From Nanobdellota archaeon (lineage in GTDB: Archaea; Nanobdellota; Nanobdellia; Pacearchaeales; GW2011-AR1), in the NCBI GenBank assembly GCA_038045425.1, contig JBBSYD010000032.1:1-33998 (forward strand): a stretch of 33,998 bases of DNA, written 5' to 3'. Under the pieces are notes generated by a model. It was not told the DNA's origin and did no database searches. It saw nothing but the letters and a program-made list of their open reading frames with translations. The first letter of the stretch is position 1. Each line of letters begins with the position of its first letter. This document shows, in pieces, positions 3,138 through 18,511 of this stretch. The position numbers were made by a program, and so were the translations under genes.

Positions 3138-3648
3138 TTATCGCCCAGAAATTCCAGTTGTAATGGTTCATCCATTCTATATCTTTCCAGATGTACCCGA
3201 ACTGAATTTGAATTTAATGCCTAAAGTAGGATTATGGACAGATGAATGCGTAACCGAAAAGCCAGCATATGTAGATAATATAATCGATTTAATAGAAAAT
3301 CATCAAAAAGAACTTATTGTTTTGGAAGAGGCACACAAAGTAACTCGTACAAGAAAATTTATTGAGCAAGTGAGAAAAGGAGATTCGGTTATGTTTATTG
3401 AAACTAAATATTGCAATCCCGAGCCAGTTTCTGGATGGGATGTTTTATTTGATAAATTGAAAGAGATTAATGCTTCTGAAGTTGGACTTGTTGGAGGGAT
3501 TAATTGTCGATTCGTTAAATGGTTTGAAAAAGAGGGATGTCTTGGTGTTACAAGAAAGAGATTATCAGAACAAGGATACACTCCTCAAATAATTAGAGGA
3601 CATTTTTTTGATATGCATGAAGAGACTAAGAGGTGGAGATATGGATAG
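3127..3648 (+). CDS. hypothetical protein (possible cysteine-hydrolase-like alpha/beta fold)
   Basis: Start re-called at ATG 3127 after GGGAGG; VMVHPFY and VGG...GCL pattern only weakly suggestive. Confidence 0.55.
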   Translation: METDYRPEIPVVMVHPFYIFPDVPELNLNLMPKVGLWTDECVTEKPAYVDNIIDLIENHQKELIVLEEAHKVTRTRKFIEQVRKGDSVMFIETKYCNPEPVSGWDVLFDKLKEINASEVGLVGGINCRFVKWFEKEGCLGVTRKRLSEQGYTPQIIRGHFFDMHEETKRWRYG

Positions 3649-5728
3649 TCAAACTGAAATTTTTGACGGAGTACAAACTGGAAGAGCTAGAAGAAAATTG
3701 ATTTCACAAGAAGGATTAACTAAATTATTGGAAACTCATGCATTTTCAGATGTAACGCCATTTACGGATGAACAAGGACAACAAAAGAATTGCTTTATTG
3801 CTAGAGAAGGAAGTGGGGGCAATACAAGATCAGTATTTATTGCTGTAGATAAGGCTCCAGGAAGTGCTGTTGCACAAATGCTTGAAAATAAAGGATATAA
3901 TTTAGGTAACGAAGTAAAAATTACATTAGGGCTACCTGTGGATGAAGCAATACTTCATGGAGTAAATCCTCTTTTGAGATTTATGGAAGTTGATGGAAAT
4001 TATGTAGCAATTTCACCCCATTTTGTTAATTCAAAATCTTTGAGAAGAAAAGTTAAAGAAGAAGGAACGTTGTCTAAACAAGAATTTGTATCTGTATTCA
4101 AACAAGTTATCGCTGCGGAGGATTATTTAATTTCTAAAGGAATAGTTCATAGAGATTTAAATCCAGGAAATATTCTTTTAAGAGGAAAAGGAAAAGGAAT
4201 TGAGAGTAGATTGACGGATTTAGCTACTGCAGGAAGTTTAGGTAATGAATCAGATAGCACGCTTCCTACTGGAGGACAGAGAGCAATAAGGGATCCTAAA
4301 TATGGTAAAGTATTTACTAATCAAACAACTAATTCTGTTCAAAATGAAATGTATGGTATTGCAATGGATGCTTTGTTTGCAATAAACGGAGCCTTACCAG
4401 TATACTATGATTTTATTAGTGGAATGGGAATTGAAACTGCTACTGGAGAAAGTTTACTTGATGAAAATGGAAAAATTGTTCCTGAAAAACATAATGCTGC
4501 AATAGATAGAGCAATCGCTAAACTTCCTCGATGGGCAAAGAGACATGCTTCTTGGATTAAAAAAGCAACTCAAAGTGAAGGAAGATATCAATCATTTCAA
4601 CAGTTTAAAGAAGATTTTGAAAAATCTGCAAGCCCTAGTTTAATTGAAAGAGTTAGAGAATTAAGTAATAAAACAAAGGGGGCAATTGCAGGAGGTTTGG
4701 TAGGAGTTATGGCATTAACTGGTGTTGGAGCAAAGTTAACATATACCCAAATTCAAAAGCAACATGAAACTGAAGTTAGTGAAGCTAGAAAATATAAAGT
4801 TAATACTGAATGGAATGGATTGACTGCTGAACTCAAGAATAATATTGCTGATTTAGAGACAGTTATATTTGTTAAAGGAAATACAAATTATTATCCTAAA
4901 ACTAAAGTACTACATGCTAACGCGGGCGGGATATTAGATTTGAGTATTAGTGCAATTGACAAACAGACAGGTGATACCTTACCAACTATGCCTGGAAGAG
5001 TATATTTAGAAGGCGTTGATACAAATGATGTTCCAGTTCAATCATTTTATATTAGTCCCGTAAATAATAGTCAGACTCCTAGTGAATCTAGTTCGTTTAG
5101 TGGAGACAAAAAAATAGTCCTTCCTAAAAATCTACCTGATGGAAATTATATTTTAGCAGTTGAATTACAAATTCCTAGAATTAAAATGAGAGATGACGAA
5201 TGGGACATAAAAGCGAAAAAGAAACATTTAGCGAAAGTTGCATACCAGGGGAATACTTTATCTAGAAAAAGAATTCCTATTGTAGTTGGGAAGCCGTCTC
5301 AAGAAGTAGATTTAGGTAATGTATATATTGCAGGATATGGCTTTGATTCTGTATCGTTTAGAGACTTAAGAGAAGGTGAGATATATGGAGATAATTATGC
5401 TTCTCCTCGGGGGAAAAACATGGAATATGAATTTTATTTATTTGGAAAATGCATTTCTCAATCAGGTGACAGTTATACTGGTATTTGGTTACCTGAAGTA
5501 AATAATACTGCTTCGGATATTCTGAATGTGGTTATAAAAGAAAATGGAATTCCATTTACATATAGTGGTATTCCTGTTGAAAGAGTGAATGAATTAGGGA
5601 GATATAGATGGAAAGTTTCTAATTTTTGTCCTGAAGATATGCCTAAAAGAATTGCTGATTTTAGAAAGAATTATGAGTCTAGCTTGAATATAGCTCATTC
5701 TTCAACTAGTGAGAAAACTAGTAAATAG
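3641..5728 (+). CDS. membrane-anchored Ser/Thr (Hanks-like) protein kinase with extracytoplasmic beta-rich domain (module 1)
   Basis: Gly-rich loop EGSGGN, catalytic loop HRDLNPGNILL, DFG-equivalent TDLA, TM segment GAIAGGLVGVMALTGVGA; start at ATG 3641 after GAGGTGGAG. Confidence 0.85.
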   Translation: MDSQTEIFDGVQTGRARRKLISQEGLTKLLETHAFSDVTPFTDEQGQQKNCFIAREGSGGNTRSVFIAVDKAPGSAVAQMLENKGYNLGNEVKITLGLPVDEAILHGVNPLLRFMEVDGNYVAISPHFVNSKSLRRKVKEEGTLSKQEFVSVFKQVIAAEDYLISKGIVHRDLNPGNILLRGKGKGIESRLTDLATAGSLGNESDSTLPTGGQRAIRDPKYGKVFTNQTTNSVQNEMYGIAMDALFAINGALPVYYDFISGMGIETATGESLLDENGKIVPEKHNAAIDRAIAKLPRWAKRHASWIKKATQSEGRYQSFQQFKEDFEKSASPSLIERVRELSNKTKGAIAGGLVGVMALTGVGAKLTYTQIQKQHETEVSEARKYKVNTEWNGLTAELKNNIADLETVIFVKGNTNYYPKTKVLHANAGGILDLSISAIDKQTGDTLPTMPGRVYLEGVDTNDVPVQSFYISPVNNSQTPSESSSFSGDKKIVLPKNLPDGNYILAVELQIPRIKMRDDEWDIKAKKKHLAKVAYQGNTLSRKRIPIVVGKPSQEVDLGNVYIAGYGFDSVSFRDLREGEIYGDNYASPRGKNMEYEFYLFGKCISQSGDSYTGIWLPEVNNTASDILNVVIKENGIPFTYSGIPVERVNELGRYRWKVSNFCPEDMPKRIADFRKNYESSLNIAHSSTSEKTSK

Positions 5729-6576
5729 TTATTTATCTTTATTATAGTATCTAAAAGCTCTATCAAGTTTGCATCAATTTTATCTTTACTGGAAACTGAT
5801 TTTTTTATGAATTCATATCTTTTAGCACATTCTACAAGTTCTTTTTTGTTAAATTCAAATATTAATTTTTTAAAATAGGATAATAACTCTCTACTTTGAG
5901 ATATGGTTTTAATTTGATTTTTGTTTAGCTTATCTGTTTTGCTTTCAATTGCTATTTTTTTATAGCTATCTCCGATTTCTTCTAAAAGATTTATAATTCC
6001 ATAGATTTGAGAGGTTTTTTCAAATTCCTTATAGCTAGATTTATTTAGAATTCGCATACAAAAATGGCACAATCTATTTACACTAGAGTCTACTTGAATT
6101 ACTTGTTCTAATTCACTTCCTTTTTGTAAATTTAATGCTAATTCTTCCGCCATGGAGTCGAGTATTAAAAAAATTCTTTTAATTAGTTCATCAATATCTT
6201 GATTTTGTGAACCAGTTACATCTTTTAGAATAAAAGTAGTTTGAGTTTGTTTAATTATTTCAAATCCCAAAAGTTCAGAAATAACTCTTTTTTGAAAGTC
6301 TTTTACATCTTCTTTATTGCTAAATGTCGCTTCAATTTCATCGACTCCGTGAACATAAAGAGCAATAAATGAACGATTTATTAATGGAGAAAGTCCTGAA
6401 ACATCAATTTTAACTTTTTTTTGAATTGGAGAAGAATTTGCTTCTATAATTAATTTGTTTTCATCTTCAGTAACATTAATATTATTTCCTTTATTCAATC
6501 CATTTCTTTCTATCCATTTTTTAGGTAGATAAATTGTATATCCTCCTCCGCCTTGCTGAATTAGCTTTCTTTCCAT
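5695..6576 (-). CDS. AbrB-PhoU family regulator (archaeal phosphate-uptake regulator-like; module 1)
   Basis: RKLIQQGGGGYTIYLPKKWI AbrB domain, LYVHGVDEI, GFEII, DSSVNRL and LEEIGD PhoU-like helices. Confidence 0.88.
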   Translation of the reverse strand: MERKLIQQGGGGYTIYLPKKWIERNGLNKGNNINVTEDENKLIIEANSSPIQKKVKIDVSGLSPLINRSFIALYVHGVDEIEATFSNKEDVKDFQKRVISELLGFEIIKQTQTTFILKDVTGSQNQDIDELIKRIFLILDSMAEELALNLQKGSELEQVIQVDSSVNRLCHFCMRILNKSSYKEFEKTSQIYGIINLLEEIGDSYKKIAIESKTDKLNKNQIKTISQSRELLSYFKKLIFEFNKKELVECAKRYEFIKKSVSSKDKIDANLIELLDTIIKINNYLLVFSLVEE

Positions 6577-6764: not shown

Positions 6765-8000
6765 ATGAAAAACACAATAAGAAACGGAATAAATACAGGG
6801 TTAGTTGGACTTAGTACCTTGATAAGTGCAAATGCTCAGACACCTCAAGGTAATCTGGATAGAATGGCAAGTCAATTTGATGAAGGAAGAGTAAAGAGTG
6901 AATTCAATAGCGACTTTGATGATAGAAGCACAGTTATGACTACTTTAGGTTTTGGACCAAAGGGAACTTATTCTATCGAAGGAAAACCTCAACCTAGTTA
7001 TGGACAGATATTTGAAGCATTTAGATTGTATGATACATTCTCTAAGGGAATGGGAAATGCAAGAGGAGCAGAGTGGAGTCATTGGACTGCGGCAGGATTT
7101 AGGTCTTCATTGAATATTGGTGGATTGGATCAAAAATTCTTAGTATACGGAGTTGGAGGAGATAAACAAGGAATTGGATTTGATATTGAACCTAGAGTGA
7201 GTGAGCATTTATCACTTAACTTAGTAGTTGAAGAAAGTTTGAGAGATAACCGAGAAAGAATTGGAGGAGGAATTAATTTACAAATTGGAAAACCTCTTAC
7301 TATTAATTTAGGATATGATGAAGTTAGCAAATCTGGAATTAATCAGATTTCTCAACCTCATGTAAGAATAATGTATGATATAACTCCAAATGACGCAGTT
7401 GGATTTGCATTTGCAGAAAAAAATATGCCTGGAAATACTGAACATGGAGTTGGAATGTTTTATGCTCACTGGGGAAAGGATAAAACTTGGGGAGGAAGAG
7501 TATATGAGGATATTAGAAGTGATGAAAAAGGAAACTTTGCTCAAGCTGGACACGTAATATTTGCACCAAATAAGAATTGCACTGTTGGAAAAATGGGAAT
7601 TGCTGGAGCACTTGCAAGAGTTCCTTCTGAAGATGGAGCATTCAATAATGGAGTTTTACCAACTACTGTTAATAGACTTGAAAAATTGGAAACACATGAT
7701 AGGACATATGAAGGACTTGCGTTTAGATATAATTGGAAGAGTGCAGAAGCGGGAAATAAAAAATCTGGATATTACTCTGGAGATGTAGCTTACAATTTCA
7801 AAGAAGGAATTTGCGGAGGAAGACTTGGAGTTACAGCAGGGATGGCATATAATTGGAGCAATTTTGCTAAAGATGGAATTACATTTAATCCTTCATTCGC
7901 TTACAGACTTGGAAATGTAGATGCTGAAGCAGGATTAGTTTTGCCTTTGAATACTGATGACAAACCAATGGTAAGATTTGGTTTGCAGGGATGGTTTTAG
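6765..8000 (+). CDS. secreted beta-strand-rich protein, beta-barrel-like, C-terminal Phe (module 1)
   Basis: Signal peptide ending ANA-Q; alternating Gly/aromatic strands; ends VRFGLQGWF; RBS AGGAG. Confidence 0.6.
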   Translation: MKNTIRNGINTGLVGLSTLISANAQTPQGNLDRMASQFDEGRVKSEFNSDFDDRSTVMTTLGFGPKGTYSIEGKPQPSYGQIFEAFRLYDTFSKGMGNARGAEWSHWTAAGFRSSLNIGGLDQKFLVYGVGGDKQGIGFDIEPRVSEHLSLNLVVEESLRDNRERIGGGINLQIGKPLTINLGYDEVSKSGINQISQPHVRIMYDITPNDAVGFAFAEKNMPGNTEHGVGMFYAHWGKDKTWGGRVYEDIRSDEKGNFAQAGHVIFAPNKNCTVGKMGIAGALARVPSEDGAFNNGVLPTTVNRLEKLETHDRTYEGLAFRYNWKSAEAGNKKSGYYSGDVAYNFKEGICGGRLGVTAGMAYNWSNFAKDGITFNPSFAYRLGNVDAEAGLVLPLNTDDKPMVRFGLQGWF

Positions 8001-8001
8001 A

Positions 8002-8334
8002 ATGGACAAACTTTACACAATATTGCTTGGAGAGTTGGTTATAGGGACAATATCCCAGGGGTACGGATATGTTAAAGGAATTAAGAAAGGGATCGAATGG
8101 TCTGCTCCAGTTAAGGTTATTCAAACAGATCTTAATGGAGATGGAGTTAAAGATATTATAGTTTATAATGATTTAAGAAAAGATAATTCTAGAATATTTA
8201 TTGCAAATACAAACGGAACTTATACTCCTTGGGAGGTATATAAGTCTAATTTAGTTAATCAGCCTAGAGAAGGAATAGAGAAACTTGAGAGAGAAGTTGA
8301 ATCTAGAGTGAAGGGATTGGAGGGAAGACAATGA
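8002..8334 (+). CDS. small membrane-anchored protein with DxNxDG loop, array paralog P1
   Basis: N-terminal TM helix, DLNGDGVKD, NTNGTY, C-terminal charged helix ending EGRQ; start re-called at ATG 8002. Confidence 0.75.
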   Translation: MDKLYTILLGELVIGTISQGYGYVKGIKKGIEWSAPVKVIQTDLNGDGVKDIIVYNDLRKDNSRIFIANTNGTYTPWEVYKSNLVNQPREGIEKLEREVESRVKGLEGRQ

Positions 8335-8837
8335 CCTCCGAACTAACAACCCTAGGATGGATGAAAGAACTTCGAGACAAGGCACCTATGAATTATTATG
8401 GAATAAGCGGAGCTTTAGAATTGTATCTTAACGCGCAAGACATGATTGAACTTAGTAAAACTGGAAAAGTAAGACCACGTACTGAAGCGAAAAAGAAATT
8501 AATTAATTTAACTAATACAATAGGATTAGGTGTTCCTATATCTGCAATGATTGGAATAGCAACAATAGGTGGAGCAGTTGCATTTGGATTTTATAACGGA
8601 ATAACTGGACAGCCGGCACTAGGAAATGGAAATGGATTGAATGCACGGGACATTGTTGAACTATGCGGAATTGCTGGAGCATCGGGAGCACTTGCAACTG
8701 GAGCAATTATTGAAAGAGAAAATTTAGGAGAGACAGTAAAAAATGTTGCAGGATCATTAACATTTTTTCCTGCAGGAGTTGCAATGTATCACGGAATAGG
8801 ATTTGGAATTGGATGTTTAGCAAGGGAGATGATATAA
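8331..8837 (+). CDS. hypothetical Gly-rich multi-pass membrane protein
   Basis: Several Gly/Ala-rich hydrophobic segments; ATGA- and TAATG-coupled to its neighbours. Confidence 0.7.
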   Translation: MTSELTTLGWMKELRDKAPMNYYGISGALELYLNAQDMIELSKTGKVRPRTEAKKKLINLTNTIGLGVPISAMIGIATIGGAVAFGFYNGITGQPALGNGNGLNARDIVELCGIAGASGALATGAIIERENLGETVKNVAGSLTFFPAGVAMYHGIGFGIGCLAREMI

Positions 8838-9166
8838 TGGAATCTTTTGACAAAATAATGATTGGACTAATCGGATTCACCTTAGGAGCATTAGGAATTC
8901 TTAAAACAATAGATTATGTGGCAAAATTGGGCGAGCCACAAACTATAGTTTCAACAGATCTTAATGGAGATGGAGTTAAAGATTTAGTTATTTATGGAAA
9001 TCGCTCTTGGGATTCTAGAGGGAAAATATTTATCGGAAATACAAATGGAACTTATGCTCCTTGGAAAAGTTATAGATCTAATTTAGTTAATCAGACTAGA
9101 GAAGGAGTGGAGAAGCTTGAGAGAGAAGTTGAGTCTAGAGTGAAGGGATTGGAGGGAAGACAATGA
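8837..9166 (+). CDS. small membrane-anchored protein with DxNxDG loop, array paralog P2
   Basis: TM helix, DLNGDGVKD, NTNGTY, ends GLEGRQ; start re-called at the TAATG overlap at 8837. Confidence 0.75.
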   Translation: MESFDKIMIGLIGFTLGALGILKTIDYVAKLGEPQTIVSTDLNGDGVKDLVIYGNRSWDSRGKIFIGNTNGTYAPWKSYRSNLVNQTREGVEKLEREVESRVKGLEGRQ

Positions 9167-9750
9167 GTCTTCAATTTAAACTCGGGGGACAAGAAGATAT
9201 TCCACAAGTAAAAGAACTTTTGGGAAGAAATTTATATTTAGGTATTCCTATGGGGCAGAGAGCAAATAATGGCTTTTTGAGATATGATATTGAACCTGAA
9301 GTTTTTGATAGATGTGCAAGAGAAGGAAATTTAGTTGTAGCTAGAAATGAAAGAGAACTTGCAGGATATATGGTTTGTTTTACAAAAGAACAAAGCATGA
9401 ACAATCCATTCTTTTCTGAATTTTTAAGAAATGCACAAGAAATGGAATTTGAAGGTAAAAAAATTAGCAATTTGAATTTTGTAATTTACGCACAAGTTTG
9501 TATAGATAAAAGATTTAGACATCAGGGAACGTTAGCAGGGCTTCATAGAACTATGAGAGATATTCAAAGAGAAAAATATGATATTGGAATTAGTGAAATA
9601 GATCAAGAAAATGCTGTTTCATGGAATGCTAATATAAAAAGAGCAGGAGTTATTCATGTGGGAAATTATGCAGCAAGTAGTGGAGCAAACTGGAGAGTTG
9701 TTGTTTTGAATTTACATAAGAAGTTACCATTTGATGAGGGAAGACAATGA
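9163..9750 (+). CDS. GNAT-family acetyltransferase
   Basis: LAGY strand, QVCIDKRFRHQG acetyl-CoA-binding motif A, EIDQEN..S. Confidence 0.8.
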   Translation: MSLQFKLGGQEDIPQVKELLGRNLYLGIPMGQRANNGFLRYDIEPEVFDRCAREGNLVVARNERELAGYMVCFTKEQSMNNPFFSEFLRNAQEMEFEGKKISNLNFVIYAQVCIDKRFRHQGTLAGLHRTMRDIQREKYDIGISEIDQENAVSWNANIKRAGVIHVGNYAASSGANWRVVVLNLHKKLPFDEGRQ

Positions 9751-10754
9751 GCATCGATATTGTAATATTAGGTACGGAAAAGGGAAGTAAAGTTGTTCCG
9801 CTTGCTGAAATTGCTCAGAAATTTGGAAAAGCGGAGGATGTAAAGAGTTTAGAGAGATGTGGAACAACTAATTTGTATAGATTTGCAGAGGGGGAGAGTT
9901 TAGAGTCAAAGGCGACTGAAATTGTTAGAGGATTTTTAGATATTCCTGAAATACAAATCAAGCCGTCTGGATTATCTCCACCAGAACAAAACATTTCTGG
10001 AATATTTTCTAGTGTTGCATGTACTACTAGTGATTATCAAATGCCTGGGCTAGCAAGAAGTGTAGGACATAATCTTGGACTTTCAGGAATACCTATGATT
10101 AATTTGAGTATGGGTTGTGCTGGAGGAATGCATGCTCTTCAAATGGCTTACAATCAGTTAGTTGTTGATTCTGTTAATGGAAAAAGAGCAAATTATGTTG
10201 TTATAGCTGGAGATCATACTTCTAGAGTGTTGGATAAGGAAGCTTGGGATACTGCGGGAATATTTAGTGATGGAGTTGCTGCTGCACTTGTAAGTAATTA
10301 TGTTCCTGGGCCGTTTAGTATTAAGAAAATAGGAAGTACTAATCTTGAAGGAGATATTCATTCTATGAGAATTGATTCTAAAGAGAAAATATTTAGAATG
10401 GATGGAGGAAAGGTTTTTGATTTTGCTACTAAAAAAGTATTTCCTGCCGCATTAGGATTATTAGGATTAGAGAAATTACCTGAAAATGTTTATTTTATTC
10501 CTCATCAAGCAAGTGGAGCAATTCTTGACGGGATGAGAAGAAGACATAAAATACCTACAGAACAATTTTATTCTGATGGAATTAAAAGAGAGGGAAATAT
10601 TCCTGCCGCTTCTGTTTATTTTGGATTGCTTGATGCTGAAAACAAAGAGCTTTTTGGATATAAAGACGTAATTCTTTGTGGTTTTGGTGCTGAACTTGCG
10701 GTTAGTGCGGTATATTTGAAAAATAATTTGAATGGAGGAAGTGAAAATGAATAA
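9747..10754 (+). CDS. 3-oxoacyl-ACP synthase III (FabH)-like condensing enzyme
   Basis: Cys-His-Asn triad: MGCAGG, IPHQAS, GNIPAASV; FSDGVAA; FRMDGGKVF; GFGA. Confidence 0.85.
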   Translation: MSIDIVILGTEKGSKVVPLAEIAQKFGKAEDVKSLERCGTTNLYRFAEGESLESKATEIVRGFLDIPEIQIKPSGLSPPEQNISGIFSSVACTTSDYQMPGLARSVGHNLGLSGIPMINLSMGCAGGMHALQMAYNQLVVDSVNGKRANYVVIAGDHTSRVLDKEAWDTAGIFSDGVAAALVSNYVPGPFSIKKIGSTNLEGDIHSMRIDSKEKIFRMDGGKVFDFATKKVFPAALGLLGLEKLPENVYFIPHQASGAILDGMRRRHKIPTEQFYSDGIKREGNIPAASVYFGLLDAENKELFGYKDVILCGFGAELAVSAVYLKNNLNGGSENE

Positions 10755-11097
10755 TAAAAGAGAAGATATGCAATTTATTCCTACCTGGCCGTACGGAATA
10801 CTTTTAGCGTTGGCATTAGTTGCAAATGTGTTTCATAGAATAGGTTATAAAAAAGGACTAAAAGCAGGAGAAATTGTTCTGGTTAAAGAAGATAATTATA
10901 ATAATGAAGGACTAAAGAATATTATAGTACATAGCGAAATTGGAAGAACTTATCGTTTTATTAGAAACACAAATGGAGAGTACCTCCCTTGGGAATATTA
11001 CCGAACTTTACCTGAGAGCGATGGGAGCGAGAAAGTTGAACGACTTGAGAGAGAAGTTGGGTCTAATGCCTTGCAAAGAGTGGAGGGAAGACAATGA
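10747..11097 (+). CDS. small membrane-anchored protein, array paralog P3 (DxNxxG loop)
   Basis: TM helix, DNYNNEGLKN, NTNGEY.PW, LEREV, ends EGRQ; start re-called after GGAGG at 10747. Confidence 0.7.
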   Translation: MNNKREDMQFIPTWPYGILLALALVANVFHRIGYKKGLKAGEIVLVKEDNYNNEGLKNIIVHSEIGRTYRFIRNTNGEYLPWEYYRTLPESDGSEKVERLEREVGSNALQRVEGRQ

Positions 11098-11507
11098 AAA
11101 CTTCAAAGTTTAATGGAATTGAAGTAATCGCTTTTAATTATGAAACTCATTTTGAGGGATTAAAAACAGGAGATTTAATTCTTTACCCTCAATTGACCGC
11201 GTCAGACTTTTCTGATTCGGCTAAATTAGATGGAGACCCTATGCGTATGAATGGAGTACATCAAATTGCAATAAATTTTAATGATTTATGCATTGCAGTT
11301 ATAACAAAAAAACAAGGAAACTTTGTTGACTACTTAGCTACAAGACTTAATGGAAGCACTAAAAATGGTACATTATGCCTAGACTATGGACTTAATGGAA
11401 CTGCAATTCTTCATAGAGAAAGCGAAGGAAAACTAGTACTTTACTGTAGCAAGCCTAAATCAGAAATTGTGCAAAGATTAACAAATGAATCGGAGGGAAG
11501 ACAATGA
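11094..11507 (+). CDS. hypothetical protein
   Basis: 137-aa ORF bounded on both sides by the 15-bp junction motif; no visible similarity to P1-P4. Confidence 0.7.
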   Translation: MKTSKFNGIEVIAFNYETHFEGLKTGDLILYPQLTASDFSDSAKLDGDPMRMNGVHQIAINFNDLCIAVITKKQGNFVDYLATRLNGSTKNGTLCLDYGLNGTAILHRESEGKLVLYCSKPKSEIVQRLTNESEGRQ

Positions 11508-11965
11508 ATTGGAATAAGGCTTTAGTTCTGGGTGCATTAGGATTTAGCTTTGTGACTGGAATAATTATTGGAGACCGAGTTCGGTATTTAGCAATTAATA
11601 AAGCAAATGAATCATCCTACTCTTTAGGATATCATCAAGGAGTAAGAGACTCTGTTCCAACACATATATTCTCAGAAGAGGTGAATAAAGACGGAATTAA
11701 AGATTTAGTTGTTTACAGCAGGGCATATACAAATGGCTCTGCGATATATATAGGAAGCACAAATGGAACATTTGAGAGCTTTGATGAATATAAGGAAAAA
11801 GTTCTAAGAGAATATAAATTTAAAGTAGAGAATCTTGAAGCGGAACTAAACTCCATACAAAGAAAAGTAGGAAGTGGGATATATGAGTCTAAATTAAGAG
11901 AAAATATGAAAGAGCCTTCTGAGTGGCAGGCAATAGAGAGGCCTGAATCTGGAGGGAAAAGATGA
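11504..11965 (+). CDS. small membrane-anchored protein, array paralog P4
   Basis: TM helix, EVNKDGIKDLVVY, STNGTF, C-terminal charged helix; ends in the degenerate junction. Confidence 0.7.
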   Translation: MNWNKALVLGALGFSFVTGIIIGDRVRYLAINKANESSYSLGYHQGVRDSVPTHIFSEEVNKDGIKDLVVYSRAYTNGSAIYIGSTNGTFESFDEYKEKVLREYKFKVENLEAELNSIQRKVGSGIYESKLRENMKEPSEWQAIERPESGGKR

Positions 11966-11982
11966 ATGAAAATAATAAAATC

Positions 11983-12159
11983 TTATCTAATTTGAAAATC
12001 AAGTCCTGAAATTTGTTGATCTGATTCTCTTGATGAGAATTTATTTTTGATTGCATCGCCAATTGCCTTATACATTAAATTCTTGTGAGGCCATGCCTTA
12101 ATCAACAATTTATAATCTCTGATTAATTCTTCTGAAAATCGTGGTGTTTTTGAAGTCAT
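11983..12159 (-). pseudogene. 58-aa ORF, probable truncated N-terminus of a class I methyltransferase paralog
   Basis: Translated by hand: MTSKTPRFSEELIRDYKLLIKAWPHKNLMYKAIGDAIKNKFSSRESDQQISGLDFQIR; aligns by eye with the N-terminus of 12165-12911 and stops at the motif I position. Confidence 0.5.
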
Positions 12160-15406: not shown

Positions 15407-16312
15407 ATGATAAGAAAGCTTATAGGTCAAGGTTTAGGGGGAATGACTATTCATTTACCTAAGAAATGGATAGAGGCATATCATTTGAGCAAAGGTGATG
15501 ACATTTATATCGATGATGCAGAAGGAAAATTAATTATTTCCCCTAAGAGCCAAAAATTAAAGAGGGAGACAACAATTAAGTTAATAGGACTTGAAGAGTC
15601 TTTAATTAGAATTCTAATAGGAAATACTTACCGCCTAGGATTCGATAAAATTGTGGTTGAATTTGAGAGCGAGAAACAATTTGAGATTTTACAAGAAGTA
15701 ATTCAGAAAAGAACTATCGGTTTTGAGATTGTAAAAAAAGAAAATAAAAAATGCATTGTAGAGAACGTTACAGAACCTTCTGAAGATCAGTTTGATAATA
15801 TCCTTCTAAAAATCTTTATGAATATTGATGAGTTATTTGAAGAAACAAGTAAGAGATTAAATCTTGTTAAAGGAGAAAAGCAGGAAAATATTGATGAGAT
15901 TGAAGATAGAATAATACGTTATGATCAATTTTGTAGAAGAATTCTTCTTAAAAAAAGATTTGAGCCAAAGTCTAGTCTGCATCTTGCATTTATACTCATG
16001 ATAATCCACGGGCAGAGAGAATTATATTACCTAACTAAAGCAGTTAGTAAAGAAAATAAGTTTTCTAAAGAGACTTTAGCCTTGTTTTCAAAGATTCTAG
16101 AATTATATCGTCTTGTAAAAGAAGCTTATCTTGCTAAAGAATCATCTCAACTAGCTCAGATAAATAAACAAGGACGAGATATAATATACAAGAAAGGATA
16201 TTCTTTAATAGAAAAAACAAAAGGAAAAGAATCTATTATAATTTATCATTTACTTGCCTGCGCTCGTAATTTTTACCAATCAGTTAGTTCTTTGAGCGGT
16301 CTTTTGCTCTGA
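15407..16312 (+). CDS. AbrB-PhoU family regulator (module 2)
   Basis: RKLIGQGLGGMTIHLPKKWI, YRLGFDKI, GFEIV; paralog of 5695-6576. Confidence 0.88.
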   Translation: MIRKLIGQGLGGMTIHLPKKWIEAYHLSKGDDIYIDDAEGKLIISPKSQKLKRETTIKLIGLEESLIRILIGNTYRLGFDKIVVEFESEKQFEILQEVIQKRTIGFEIVKKENKKCIVENVTEPSEDQFDNILLKIFMNIDELFEETSKRLNLVKGEKQENIDEIEDRIIRYDQFCRRILLKKRFEPKSSLHLAFILMIIHGQRELYYLTKAVSKENKFSKETLALFSKILELYRLVKEAYLAKESSQLAQINKQGRDIIYKKGYSLIEKTKGKESIIIYHLLACARNFYQSVSSLSGLLL

Positions 16313-18511
16313 CGCTTCTAATTGAGAACGATATCTTGCAACTTTCTCTGTAAACTCTCTAGGTGGACGAGCAAGATCCCAATCAAGAAGCTTATACCCT
16401 CCAAGGGGTCCATATTTTAGAGGATATGCTGTAGAAAGTACTTTCTTGCCAGATGCTTTATCTCGAATATCTAAAAGAAAAGTATAATTTCCTACAGGTA
16501 TATTTGTCCCTCCTGGAAGTGGGAGTGTCACTAAATGAGGCCAGTTAACTTGAGAGTAATTCAATTCAGGTATGCGACAATCCATTTCATAGTTATCTCT
16601 AAAATTGTACTCTAGACCATTCAATAGCCCATTAGTTGGATTAAATGTATCAAACTGTATCTCATTCTGAAGATATGAAAACTGTACTTTAGATACTCTA
16701 AGAACTTCAGAAGGCATTTTTCCAACTATTAGAGGAATTCTTTCTTCGACAAGAGCATTTGTTCCATTTGCCTTTATAATAAAATCTATGTCATCTCTAG
16801 AATTTACTTCTTTTGGTGGAAATGCATTTACTATAATCGTATAGTTTCCTGCAGGCATGTTTGTAGGTATTCTTAGCGATGCAAAATTTTTATTAAACTG
16901 ACCCCCTGGAGGATATCCCCTTGAAGAAACAGACTTAGGGTTAGTTGATAAGCTATTAAACTCTTCAGAAGGTATATTCGTCGTCCCCTCAACTGAAACC
17001 TTTATAGGATAAACTAAGTAAGGAACTCTAAGATTTCTTGAAGGCAAAGGTCTTTGGAGAATATCCCCCGTAACAGTTACAATGTCTCCAGGTTTAGCTA
17101 ATATTAATTTAGTTTTTGATGGATAATGTTGGTCATTTGTAGAGGCACGATCATAACAATCTGCTCTCGCTTTCATATCAAACAATGCAGAAGGCACAAG
17201 TCTATTATTTCCATCCCAATCAGCATCTAATAATATTGTCTTTTGCTCATCCCCCATAAGTTGTCTAGCATAATTCAAAGCGTTAGAATTATTTATGGCG
17301 ATATTCGTCCCAGCTCCAAGTGCCACGAGCCCAGTTAAAGCAATTAACGAATTTCTAACCCAATGTTTTTTTACTTTCTGCCAAGTACTTGGCTTTTCAA
17401 CACAATCTAATCTTTTAACTAGACCCATTAGTGTAGGAATTCTTTTAGAGTCATATCTTAATCCATCGTAAAGTAATTCTTTGTAGTCTTTTGCATTTTC
17501 TGGTAATCTATCTAAAGCAGTGCTCAACATTTTGTCGTATTCATTTTCATCAAAAGGATTTGAATCATAAGGACTTACAGGCAGAAAATCTTCACCCAAA
17601 AGCATCATCCCAAACATTTTTGTTAGAGAATAAACTTCTGACGCCTGATCGTATTTTGAAGCTTTGCCAGTTCTCGCACCCATTAATCTTGGGTCACAAG
17701 TCTTTCTTCCAGGGCATGAATGAGTGAATTCATCAACTTCTTCATTAGGTCTTCCAGCAGCAGAAGTATCTGTAATAACTAAATCTCCCTGTCTTCCACC
17801 TAGAGCTACTAAAAGATTAGAAGGTTTAAGATCCCTATGTAAATGACCTGTTCTAGCAAAAAATGCTTGACTCTGTTCAAACATCTTTCTTGCATAATGA
17901 GTAGCAATATGAACGGGTAATGTTTTCTTTTGTTCAAGTATTTGTTGCAATGAAGCTGAAGGAACAAATTGTTCAGCATAAGCATAACATCCAAGATATC
18001 CTACATCTGAGAGGTCCCTTCCTTCTACTGGAGAAGAAAATCCAGTTAATCCACTTGTCTCAATAGCCATACTAGCTTCACGTCTTGAATTATACTCCTT
18101 CCTGTAATGTTTTAACATTGCTGGCGAAGCAACAGAAACAACTTCGCTTTCAGGTTTATCCATTTTTACTGCAAAGATTATATGTTTTTGCGAAGCGCTG
18201 TCAAAAACTGGCTGAGCTACAAAAACGTCTTTTATGTTTCCAGATTGATAATGCCCCCAATCATTCCATTGGGGAAACTTTGATTTCAGAGCATCGGCTT
18301 TTGCACGTAATTCAGGAGTTAGTTGAATATAAGGGACAATAGGGGGTTGTGAAACATCGCTCAAAAATTCTTTAAGAGTTTGAGGTTTTGGTTGATCTGT
18401 AAAAAATAGAGATCTAAACCCACTCCATAAACTTTTTCCAAGAGTTCTTTTGATAGATTCTTCATTTTTACTAGGTGCATTCGCAAGTGCCAAGTCCATT
18501 TCTAGGCTCAT
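16280..18511 (-). CDS. membrane-anchored Ser/Thr (Hanks-like) protein kinase with extracytoplasmic beta-rich domain (module 2)
   Basis: FAVK lysine, HRDLKPSNLL, ITDTS, SEVYSL, TM LIALTGLVALGAG; C-terminal P.GNY and RIP.IVGK shared with kinase 1. Confidence 0.88.
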   Translation of the reverse strand: MSLEMDLALANAPSKNEESIKRTLGKSLWSGFRSLFFTDQPKPQTLKEFLSDVSQPPIVPYIQLTPELRAKADALKSKFPQWNDWGHYQSGNIKDVFVAQPVFDSASQKHIIFAVKMDKPESEVVSVASPAMLKHYRKEYNSRREASMAIETSGLTGFSSPVEGRDLSDVGYLGCYAYAEQFVPSASLQQILEQKKTLPVHIATHYARKMFEQSQAFFARTGHLHRDLKPSNLLVALGGRQGDLVITDTSAAGRPNEEVDEFTHSCPGRKTCDPRLMGARTGKASKYDQASEVYSLTKMFGMMLLGEDFLPVSPYDSNPFDENEYDKMLSTALDRLPENAKDYKELLYDGLRYDSKRIPTLMGLVKRLDCVEKPSTWQKVKKHWVRNSLIALTGLVALGAGTNIAINNSNALNYARQLMGDEQKTILLDADWDGNNRLVPSALFDMKARADCYDRASTNDQHYPSKTKLILAKPGDIVTVTGDILQRPLPSRNLRVPYLVYPIKVSVEGTTNIPSEEFNSLSTNPKSVSSRGYPPGGQFNKNFASLRIPTNMPAGNYTIIVNAFPPKEVNSRDDIDFIIKANGTNALVEERIPLIVGKMPSEVLRVSKVQFSYLQNEIQFDTFNPTNGLLNGLEYNFRDNYEMDCRIPELNYSQVNWPHLVTLPLPGGTNIPVGNYTFLLDIRDKASGKKVLSTAYPLKYGPLGGYKLLDWDLARPPREFTEKVARYRSQLEASEQKTAQRTN

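What the first reader, a model, noticed from the sequence alone, without database searches (positions are those of the whole stretch)
8002..11965. Cassette-like gene array joined by an identical 15-bp RBS/stop/start junction (GAGGGAAGACAATGA)
Seen: the exact 15-mer lies at five gene boundaries (8320, 9152, 9736, 11083, 11493), with a degenerate sixth (11951-11965) closing the array. It encodes the last residues of the upstream gene (EGRQ-stop), a Shine-Dalgarno-like GAGG and the ATG of the next gene (ATGA overlap). Three copies end paralogous genes, but two end unrelated genes (GNAT, 11094-11507 hypothetical), so gene paralogy cannot explain it. Other ATGA-coupled junctions in the window (12908, 13615, 30923) do not share the sequence, so coupling alone does not require it. 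The repeats define units of one or two genes: 8335-9166, 9167-9750, 9751-11097, 11098-11507, 11508-11965. Inference: it may be a recombination/attachment site through which cassettes are gained, lost or shuffled while staying translationally coupled behind one promoter, i.e. an integron-like expression array without attC hairpins. No recombinase is visible in the window.
Basis: partly seen in the sequence, partly recalled or inferred. Interest (0 to 1): 0.88.

Follow-up and report, generated by a model that had tools for sequence, protein, structure and literature searches.

The report
Identical ribosome-site junction repeated in one operon
Five gene boundaries in one operon of a small groundwater archaeon carry the same 15-base ribosome-binding, stop and start sequence; it looks like a locally copied translational-coupling junction, not a mobile gene-cassette site.

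Summary
GAGGGAAGACAATGA occurs exactly five times (8320, 9152, 9736, 11083, 11493), always as the last codons (EGRQ-stop) of one gene plus the Shine-Dalgarno sequence and ATG of the next. It occurs nowhere else in the 1.2-Mb genome. Among 126 other ATGA stop/start junctions in that genome, no two share the 11 bases before ATGA.

The integron-like reading found no support:
- no recombinase on the contig
- no hairpins at the copies
- no alternative joints in the contigs of 4 runs
- native base composition in every unit
- no multi-copy occurrence elsewhere

The motif is the 3' tail of a small membrane-protein family (P1-P3; P4 has a decayed copy). Distant relatives in another genus also carry a conserved SD-bearing tail. 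P1 and P2 show a mosaic, low-synonymous-divergence 3' tract ending in the motif, which points to local duplication or gene conversion.

How the motif came to sit on the GNAT and on the 137-aa ORFan is unresolved. My favoured guesses are loss of an intervening P gene by SD-to-SD microhomology, or short-patch copying.

Best reading (confidence 0.55): a termination-reinitiation coupling junction, locally copied and kept uniform. Interest is moderate to low.

The parts
6765..8000 (+). First gene of the operon: 411-aa protein with an N-terminal signal-like segment (..SANAQT) and a C-terminal ..GWF. It has no Pfam hit. An AGGAG lies 13 nt before its ATG.
8002..8334 (+). P1, 110 aa: N-terminal hydrophobic helix, one FG-GAP-like blade, and a long C-terminal helix ending LEGRQ.
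   Evidence: PF13517, E 1e-4, below the curated cut-off; low-confidence model, pLDDT 54
8320..8334 (+). Junction copy 1 (P1 -> X1).
8331..8837 (+). X1, 168 aa: glycine-rich hydrophobic protein with no Pfam hit. Its stop overlaps the P2 start by one base (TAATG).
8837..9166 (+). P2, 109 aa: paralogue of P1 (56% aa identity). Its last 142 nt are 89% identical to P1.
9152..9166 (+). Junction copy 2 (P2 -> GNAT).
9163..9750 (+). GNAT-fold acetyltransferase-like protein, 195 aa. The fold aligns to homologues up to about residue 183-191. EGRQ (residues 192-195) is not a feature of the 15 homologues aligned.
9736..9750 (+). Junction copy 3 (GNAT -> KAS III-like). This is the only copy preceded by T rather than G.
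9747..10754 (+). KAS III-like condensing enzyme, 335 aa. Its C-terminal ..NGGSENE extension, absent from the two nearest orthologues, encodes the GGAGG for P3.
10747..11097 (+). P3, 116 aa: paralogue of P1 (39% aa identity). It overlaps the KAS stop by 8 nt.
11083..11097 (+). Junction copy 4 (P3 -> 137-aa ORFan).
11094..11507 (+). 137-aa ORFan. It has no Pfam hit, no credible homologue, and is not a P-family member.
11493..11507 (+). Junction copy 5 (ORFan -> P4).
11504..11965 (+). P4, 153 aa: the most divergent paralogue (30% aa identity to P1), with a ~40-aa longer C-terminus.
11951..11965 (+). Degenerate junction copy at the end of the array (GGAGGGAAAAGATGA). No real gene follows it; only a 15-codon frame does.

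Best explanation
The 15/16-mer is a translational-coupling junction. It consists of an intragenic Shine-Dalgarno sequence (GGAGG), a 7-nt spacer, and an ATGA overlap of stop and start. At such a site a ribosome that terminates on the upstream gene re-initiates on the next gene.

The junction belongs to the 3' tail of a lineage-specific family of small membrane proteins (P1-P4). It was multiplied inside this one operon by local duplication and gene conversion of P-gene 3' ends. Need for re-initiation, possibly at equal efficiency at each junction, would then keep it uniform.

The two copies on unrelated genes (the GNAT and the 137-aa ORFan) are secondary. The most likely origin is loss of an intervening P gene by deletion between the SD in front of that gene and the SD in its tail. 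Short-patch copying between two junctions that already shared GGAGG and ATGA is the alternative. Either event gives the upstream protein a new EGRQ end.

Shown: the anatomy, the uniqueness, the P-family origin, the P1/P2 mosaic, and the lack of any cassette features. Inferred: coupling in vivo, and the route by which the motif reached the two unrelated genes.
For: (1) Anatomy. All five copies are EGRQ-stop plus ATG with a 4-nt overlap. GGAGG is complementary to the ..GGATCACCTCCT 3' end of 16S rRNA in two genus relatives.

(2) The genome uses SD mainly at such junctions. SD-like 4-mers occur at 79 of 126 other ATGA junctions against 273 of 1235 first-ATG ORFs; GGAGG occurs at 20 of 126 against 55 of 1235. 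Upstream of ORFs in general there is an A-rich signal at -24..-22, as expected for leaderless archaeal mRNAs. The genome has TBP, so it is archaeal. This matches the pattern described for archaea in PMC6728339 (passages read).

(3) The motif is near the genome's generic junction type. Examples elsewhere are GGAGGAAGACGATGA, GGAGGAAGAAAATGA and GGAGGAAGATAATGA.

(4) P-family origin. Three of the five copies end P genes, and P4 ends in a decayed copy exactly where no gene follows. In another genus, two tandem P-like paralogues both end in TCTGTTCAGGAGGAAA followed by the next start. In a same-order genome, a P-like gene sits in a chain with tails ..EGGK/..ERGKR encoded by GGAGGG/AGGGG plus ATGA.

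(5) Local copying is visible. In the last 47 codons of P1/P2 there are 36 identical codons, 4 synonymous and 7 non-synonymous differences. The N-terminal 35 aligned residues have only 8 identities. Identity rises to 100% toward the motif.

(6) C-terminal extensions that encode the next gene's SD are a habit of this operon. The KAS carries ..NGGSENE, which the orthologues in G528 and G234 lack. None of 15 aligned GNAT homologues ends in EGRQ.

(7) The P3 RBS (GGAGGAAGTGAAAATGA) shares GGAGG and AAG with the motif, so SD-to-SD microhomology for a deletion exists.
Against: - No direct evidence of expression or coupling exists; no RNA run holds the locus.
- The deletion route needs two independent in-frame events that each left exactly the same 15-16 bases, and no remnant of a lost P gene is detectable. 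hhalign of the ORFan against the P profile gives probability 0.2%, and 8-mer matches around P4 are at chance level.
- Short-patch conversion across only 5 + 4 bases of flanking identity is not an established process in this organism.
- Selection for an SD does not explain why the 7-nt spacer is also identical. At two positions (G at -4, C at -2) the motif departs from the junction consensus (frequencies 0.12 and 0.11).
- P3 is only 39% identical to P1 yet keeps 16 of 16 bases, which needs either strong constraint or recent conversion.
Confidence: 0.55

Rival explanations
1. Cassette junction. The motif is a recombination site at which one- or two-gene units are inserted, excised or shuffled, so that every unit stays in frame and coupled behind one promoter.
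For: - Single-gene units (the GNAT and the ORFan) are flanked on both sides by the exact repeat. That is what a single crossover of a circle carrying one copy would give.
- Seen from downstream, five unrelated genes (X1, GNAT, KAS, ORFan, P4) share the same 11 bases before their ATG.
- KAS orthologues elsewhere stand alone in other contexts, so the KAS was recruited into this array.
- The array genes are lineage-specific.
Against: - Neither of the genome's two PF00589 matches is on this contig; they lie on C14 and C58. No recombinase family was found in 39 window ORFs.
- No inverted repeat or hairpin lies at the copies.
- Contigs of 4 runs show one fixed order, with 9137-12100 contiguous in all four. 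These are contigs only, from one study.
- The motif is absent from the rest of the genome and from 60 relatives beyond chance: 5 single 1-mismatch hits against 4 control hits.
- 0 of 80 listed loci with the exact 16-mer in the genome collection have a second copy.
- GC 0.32-0.38 and GC3 0.15-0.25 in all units lie within the genome's range.
- Three junctions inside the array do not use the motif (411aa->P1, X1->P2, KAS->P3).
Confidence: 0.1
2. Sequence-specific RNA element. The identical 15-mer is an operator on the mRNA. It would be a binding site for a translational regulator or small RNA, or a processing site just before the ATG that yields leaderless downstream mRNAs. Five genes would then be controlled together.
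For: - The spacer as well as the SD is identical. The motif departs from the junction consensus at two positions that all five copies keep.
- The one copy with no gene behind it has decayed.
- The genome appears to use mostly leaderless mRNAs.
Against: - No complementary stretch of 12 or more bases exists anywhere in the assembly (the genome is 85% complete).
- There is no common secondary structure around the copies. Pairing partners and directions differ, and copy 5 is mostly unpaired.
- No Rfam family matches in the window.
- No RNA-binding protein is evident in the operon.
- No RNA data could be found.
Confidence: 0.15
3. Protein-level signal. The C-terminal peptide EGRQ is itself functional (a docking, sorting or degradation tag shared by five proteins of one complex), and the DNA identity follows from codon bias.
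For: - Only 9 of 1915 ORFs of 60 aa or more end in RQ, and 5 of those are in the array. EGRQ tails occur only here.
- AGA, CAA and GGA fit the AT-rich composition of this genome (32% GC; low GC3). That they are the preferred codons is my inference; I computed no codon-usage table.
Against: - P4 keeps the DNA motif in another reading frame (SGGKR), and P-like relatives end in ..VQEE(R/IK). What is conserved is the SD-bearing DNA, not the peptide.
- Identity ends exactly at the SD on the left and at the stop/start on the right.
- The proteins are unrelated in fold and probably in location (membrane P proteins against a soluble GNAT).
Confidence: 0.07
4. Chance, or independent convergence on an optimal junction.
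For: Near variants of the motif occur at other junctions. The number of genome sites within edit distance 2 (7 outside the exact copies) lies within the range seen for 20 shuffled patterns, 0-10.
Against: - 0 of 7875 pairs among 126 other ATGA junctions share the 11-mer, and 3 pairs differ by one base.
- The position-matrix probability of the motif's 11-mer is 5e-6.
- All five exact copies lie within 3.2 kb.
Confidence: 0.03

Closest known systems
Overlapping ATGA gene pairs coupled by termination-reinitiation, with an intragenic SD (Huber et al. 2019, PMC6728339; I read passages; for PMC10666635 I saw the search listing only)
   Same: Co-directed genes with a 4-nt stop/start overlap and an SD inside the 3' end of the upstream gene. 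It occurs in an archaeon where SD is rare at first genes and common at overlaps.
   Different: Known pairs each have their own sequence. Here one exact 15-16-mer, spacer included, serves five junctions of one operon and gives five proteins the same four last residues. None of the 126 other junctions of this genome repeats another.
Integron gene-cassette arrays (features from established knowledge: intI, attI, attC hairpins, Pc promoter)
   Same: One- or two-gene units in one orientation, separated by a repeated element and probably read from one upstream promoter.
   Different: There is no integrase next to the array, no attC-like imperfect inverted repeat, and the repeat is only 15-16 bases and lies inside coding sequence. 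No variation in content was seen. Three junctions lack the repeat.
Concerted evolution (gene conversion) of tandem paralogues
   Same: P1 and P2 have a near-identical 3' tract with few synonymous changes next to an unalignable 5' third. Identity peaks at the junction.
   Different: Conversion normally needs flanking homology. Two copies sit on genes with no similarity to the P family.
Short conserved 'boundary' or linker sequences at module junctions of phage genomes, and the short homology that precedes orphan toxin/immunity modules in CDI/Rhs loci (both recalled; no call or paper read here)
   Same: A short shared sequence at gene boundaries that could guide exchange of neighbouring genes by homologous or microhomology recombination.
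   Different: Those cases are defined by comparison of many genomes that show exchange. Here there is a single genome and no exchange has been seen.

Membership tests
Termination-reinitiation coupled gene pair | Co-directed genes whose stop and start overlap (ATGA) | tested here: met
   All five copies: TGA of the upstream frame overlaps the ATG of the next ORF.
Termination-reinitiation coupled gene pair | SD motif in the 3' end of the upstream gene, complementary to the 16S 3' end, at working distance from the start | tested here: met
   GGAGG (GAGG in the GNAT copy) lies 7 nt before the ATG. The 16S 3' end ..GGATCACCTCCT was read in two genus relatives. The genome's own 16S is not assembled.
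Termination-reinitiation coupled gene pair | Downstream translation depends on translation of the upstream gene | not testable with these tools
   Needs reporter constructs with premature stops. No RNA or ribosome data exist for this organism.
Integron-like cassette array | Site-specific (tyrosine) recombinase encoded beside the array | tested here: not met
   PF00589 matches only on contigs C14 and C58. No recombinase family was found in 39 window ORFs. Contig C32 beyond the window was covered only by the PF00589 search.
Integron-like cassette array | Cassette-end recombination sites with imperfect inverted repeats (attC-type hairpins) | tested here: not met
   No inverted repeat at or beside any copy. 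No shared fold.
Integron-like cassette array | Cassette content or order varies between strains, with breakpoints at the site | tested here: inconclusive
   Contigs of 4 runs (1 study, 2 samples, probably the source) show one order and no joints. No related locus was found in 60-400 relatives or in the metagenome, genome or viral collections.
Concerted evolution of tandem paralogues | Tracts of near identity with low synonymous divergence inside otherwise diverged paralogues | tested here: met
   P1/P2: 142 nt at 89% identity. In the 3' part, 34 of 38 identical residues use identical codons; the N-terminal 35 aligned residues have 8 identities.
GNAT acetyltransferase (gene 9163-9750) | GNAT fold and sequence family | tested here: met
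   Pfam gave no hit. The ESM Atlas structure search gave TM 0.84-0.90 to GNAT clusters. phmmer found 399 homologues at E<=1e-3. Catalysis was not tested.

The most novel reading that the evidence does not exclude
The 15-mer is a minimal, recombinase-independent 'operon-building' junction. Because it combines SD, stop and start in one short sequence, recombination between two copies (homologous or microhomology-mediated; recombination on short homology in archaea is recalled, not checked here) always yields in-frame, translationally coupled gene orders. An operon could then gain, lose or reorder genes at these points. The GNAT and ORFan units, each flanked by exact copies, would be products of such events.
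Probability: 0.1. Interest if true: 0.75.

Novelty: new variant of a known kind. Interest (0 to 1): 0.35.

Why it matters
If the best reading holds, this is a clear natural example of two things. First, a coupling junction, and not only a gene, can be copied and homogenised within an operon. Second, the ribosome-binding site of one gene dictates the last residues of the protein before it: the EGRQ tail appears on unrelated proteins, and the KAS carries an SD-encoding extension.

That is useful for annotating small archaeal genomes, and for choosing native junctions to test what besides the SD sets re-initiation efficiency. PMC6728339 leaves that point open (passage read).

It would matter much more if the junction turned out to guide gene shuffling, but nothing found here shows that.

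Tried and rejected
1. Genome-wide signal: rejected. The motif has 0 copies outside the array and is not found in relatives beyond control level.

2. Comparative approach: led nowhere.
- The GNAT was not found in 150 family genomes.
- The word-index search returned only the query itself for the GNAT, for the ORFan, and for P2 plus P1.
- The ORFan had 3 weak, non-credible hits in 400 order genomes.
- There was no DNA match to 12.7 kb around the array in 7 genus genomes.
- The P profile and the KAS found no relatives in metagenome contigs, and the P profile found none in genome or viral contigs.

3. Strain variation. Only Logan contigs of 4 runs from one study could be laid. They gave no joints, and contigs break only at the 31-nt or longer P1/P2 repeats. 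'No RNA holder listed', so nothing can be said on expression.

4. RNA structure and antisense: no shared fold, no Rfam hit, no complementary 12-mer.

5. Remnants of lost genes in the long P4 tail. ATGAGTCT is shared with the GNAT start and AGGAAGTG with the P3 RBS. Both are rejected as chance, because 8-mer matches have E about 6 in blastn-short.

6. Kinship of the motif with a junction on contig C71 (GGAGGG-CT-AAGACAATGA, tail GGLRQ): not significant. 7 sites lie within edit distance 2, against 0-10 for 20 shuffled patterns. The C71 198-aa protein resembles the GNAT only weakly (pairwise E 0.026; no tblastn hit at E<1).

7. The AlphaFold model of P1 was of low confidence (pLDDT 54), so I made no fold search.

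8. A frameshift or fusion reading of the motif was considered from the sequence alone and dropped. There is no slippery heptamer, and I ran no tool test.

Supplementary files of papers were not requested; the supplementary tables of PMC6728339 (SD lists) might refine the comparison.

10. The literature search for repeated junctions at gene boundaries and for DPANN/FG-GAP gave nothing relevant. I therefore claim only that I found no description, not that none exists.

Full report
**Observation.** The 15-mer GAGGGAAGACAATGA is present exactly five times in the window, all on the + strand, at 8320, 9152, 9736, 11083 and 11493. No further match appears at up to 3 mismatches. The full assembly of the organism (1.20 Mb, 108 contigs, 85% complete) has no other copy at up to 1 mismatch on either strand. 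In 60 related genomes there are only five single 1-mismatch hits, against four for the backwards control pattern. Four copies share a 16th base (GGAGGG..). Identity stops exactly after ATGA on the right. In the two non-paralogous copies it stops at the GGAGG/GAGG on the left. The sixth, degenerate copy at 11951-11965 is real: it differs from the 16-mer by 2 substitutions and 1 deletion.

**Anatomy.** The array is one co-directional gene string running 6765-11965. Its order is:
- a 411-aa signal-peptide protein
- P1
- [junction]
- X1 (168 aa, Gly-rich, hydrophobic)
- P2
- [junction]
- a GNAT-fold protein
- [junction]
- a KAS III-like enzyme
- P3
- [junction]
- a 137-aa ORFan
- [junction]
- P4, ending in the degenerate copy

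In each junction the upstream frame reads GAG GGA AGA CAA TGA (EGRQ-stop), and the ATG of ATGA opens the next gene. GGAGG lies 7 nt before that ATG. Three other junctions in the string do not use the motif:
- 411aa->P1: TAG, one base, then ATG
- X1->P2: TAATG
- KAS->P3: an 8-nt overlap preceded by GGAGGAAGTGAAA

P1-P4 are paralogues (56, 39 and 30% identity to P1). Each has an N-terminal helix, one FG-GAP-like blade (PF13517, below the cut-off) and a long C-terminal helix (low-confidence model). The GNAT assignment has three strands of evidence: the Atlas structure search (TM 0.84-0.90), 399 phmmer homologues, and no Pfam hit. The ORFan is not a P-family member and has no homologue.

**Organism and translation signals.** The genome encodes TBP, RtcB and Lrp-type regulators. 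It is 32% GC and comes from groundwater metagenomes. Its relatives have 0.4-1.3-Mb genomes. So it is a small-genome archaeon; 'DPANN-like' is my label, not a tool result. Upstream of ORFs there is an A-rich signal at -24..-22 and little SD. At ATGA overlaps SD is common: SD-like 4-mers occur at 79 of 126 junctions outside the array, against 273 of 1235 first-ATG ORFs. Two genus relatives have the canonical 16S 3' end ..GGATCACCTCCT; the genome's own 16S is not assembled. This is the pattern that Huber et al. describe for archaea with leaderless mRNAs, in which ATGA pairs are coupled by termination-reinitiation and the intragenic SD often, but variably, raises re-initiation (PMC6728339, passages read).

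**Is identity expected?** No. Among 131 crude ATGA junctions, the five array copies are exact and the next best differs at 2 positions. Among the other 126, no pair out of 7875 shares the 11 bases before ATGA. The position-matrix probability of the motif's 11-mer is 5e-6. The motif is nonetheless a member of the genome's generic type, with near variants at other junctions. The number of sites within edit distance 2 is not above that for shuffled patterns. What needs explaining is therefore the exact copying within 3.2 kb, not the kind of sequence.

**Where the motif comes from.**
- Three copies are the ends of P genes. P4, the one P gene with nothing behind it, has a decayed copy read in another frame (SGGKR).
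- P-like genes in other genera show the same habit. In G033, two tandem paralogues both end TCTGTTCAGGAGGAAA and then run into the next start. In G050, a P-like gene sits in a chain of coupled small genes whose tails (..EGGK..ERGKR) are encoded by GGAGGG/AGGGG plus ATGA.
- Within the window, the last 142 nt of P1 and P2 are 89% identical with almost no synonymous change: 34 of 38 identical residues use the same codon. Their N-terminal thirds barely align, and identity climbs to 100% at the motif. That is the signature of a recent partial duplication or gene conversion that includes the junction.
- C-terminal extensions that encode the next gene's SD recur in the operon. The KAS has ..NGGSENE, which its nearest orthologues (41% and 38% identity, standing alone in other contexts) lack. 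None of 15 aligned GNAT homologues (of 150 listed) ends in EGRQ.

**Tests of the cassette idea.**
- Neither of the genome's two PF00589 matches is on this contig; they lie on C14 and C58. No recombinase family was found among 39 window ORFs scanned.
- There are no inverted repeats at the copies.
- Every unit has native GC and GC3.
- Contigs of four runs (one study, two samples, probably the source) show no alternative joint, and 9137-12100 is contiguous in all four. Contigs cannot show rare variants.
- The exact 16-mer occurs singly in all 80 listed loci of at least 119 stretches in the genome collection.
- Relatives lack the locus, so gain and loss could not be studied.
The idea is thus unsupported but not excluded.

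**Other readings.**
- A shared RNA structure is not seen, nor any Rfam family, nor an antisense partner of 12 bases or more.
- A functional EGRQ peptide is unlikely, because P4 and the P-like relatives conserve the SD-bearing DNA and not the peptide.

**How the two unrelated genes got the motif (inference).** I see two simple routes. The first is deletion of a P gene that once lay between GNAT and KAS, and between the ORFan and P4. The break would lie between the SD in front of that P gene and the SD in its tail; the P3 RBS shows that such microhomology exists. The second is copying of the 7-nt spacer between junctions that already shared GGAGG and ATGA. Both predict identity starting at the SD and ending at the stop/start, as observed. 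Neither left a detectable remnant. A crossover between two motif copies would give the same picture, which is why the cassette-like reading keeps about 10%.

**Verdict.** The best explanation is a termination-reinitiation junction native to the P-gene tail, copied locally and kept uniform (confidence 0.55). The integron-like interpretation is partly supported: coupling yes, mobility no evidence. It is a new variant of a known kind, of moderate to low interest (0.35).

Noticed in passing
window 3608-6576 and 15407-18511: The region holding the array is bracketed by an old inverted duplication. On each side a protein kinase (706 and 743 aa, 22% identity, E 7e-17) is followed by an AbrB/MazE-PhoU-type regulator (36% identity, E 8e-33; 134 nt at 69% DNA identity). 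Each regulator is divergent from an operon whose first gene has a signal-like N-terminus (..ANAQT / ..ANAQS) and ends in Phe (411 aa and 257 aa).
   Followed up: partly
genome contigs C2, C3, C5, C7, C9, C10 and many others, mostly at contig ends: A repeat family containing GGCTACATCCCAAA occurs 46 times, with two sub-families of about 24 and 22 copies that extend 40 nt or more. It sits mostly within 40 bases of contig ends, so it looks like the ends of an insertion-sequence or MITE-like element that breaks the assembly. The genome (1.2 Mb) is also larger than its genus relatives (0.6-0.9 Mb).
   Followed up: no
genome contig C71:7601-9699, minus strand (locus L050): A second fully ATGA-coupled operon has tails ..GGLRQ and ..QGSRQ encoded by GGAGGGCTAAGACAATGA and AAGGGAGTAGACAATGA. 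Seven of the 9 ORFs (out of 1915) that end in RQ lie in this operon or in the array. The similarity to the motif is not above shuffled-pattern controls. The 198-aa protein is only weakly GNAT-like (E 0.026).
   Followed up: partly
L014:1340-1800 (genome G033): Two tandem P-like paralogues in another genus end in the same 16 bases (TCTGTTCAGGAGGAAA), but with different spacers and stop/start arrangements. The second overlaps a gene by ATGA whose sequence I read by eye as NAD-synthase-like (no tool call).
   Followed up: partly
window 8319-8341: Only at junction 1 is the GGAGG followed, right after ATGA, by its complement CCTCC. The predicted fold pairs the SD there (unpaired probability 0.0 for the first four bases), which could make this junction strictly dependent on upstream translation.
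   Followed up: no
window 10720-10754, with L048:1851-2816 and L049:8272-9306: The KAS III-like protein has a C-terminal extension of about 9 residues (..NNLNGGSENE), absent from the two nearest orthologues, that encodes the SD and start of P3. The orthologues stand alone among unrelated genes.
   Followed up: partly
window 8124-8154 / 8954-8984 and 8305-8334 / 9137-9166: Exact repeats of 30-31 nt between P1 and P2 break the Logan unitigs of all four runs at these points. Short-read assemblies of this array therefore rest on scaffolding across repeats.
   Followed up: no
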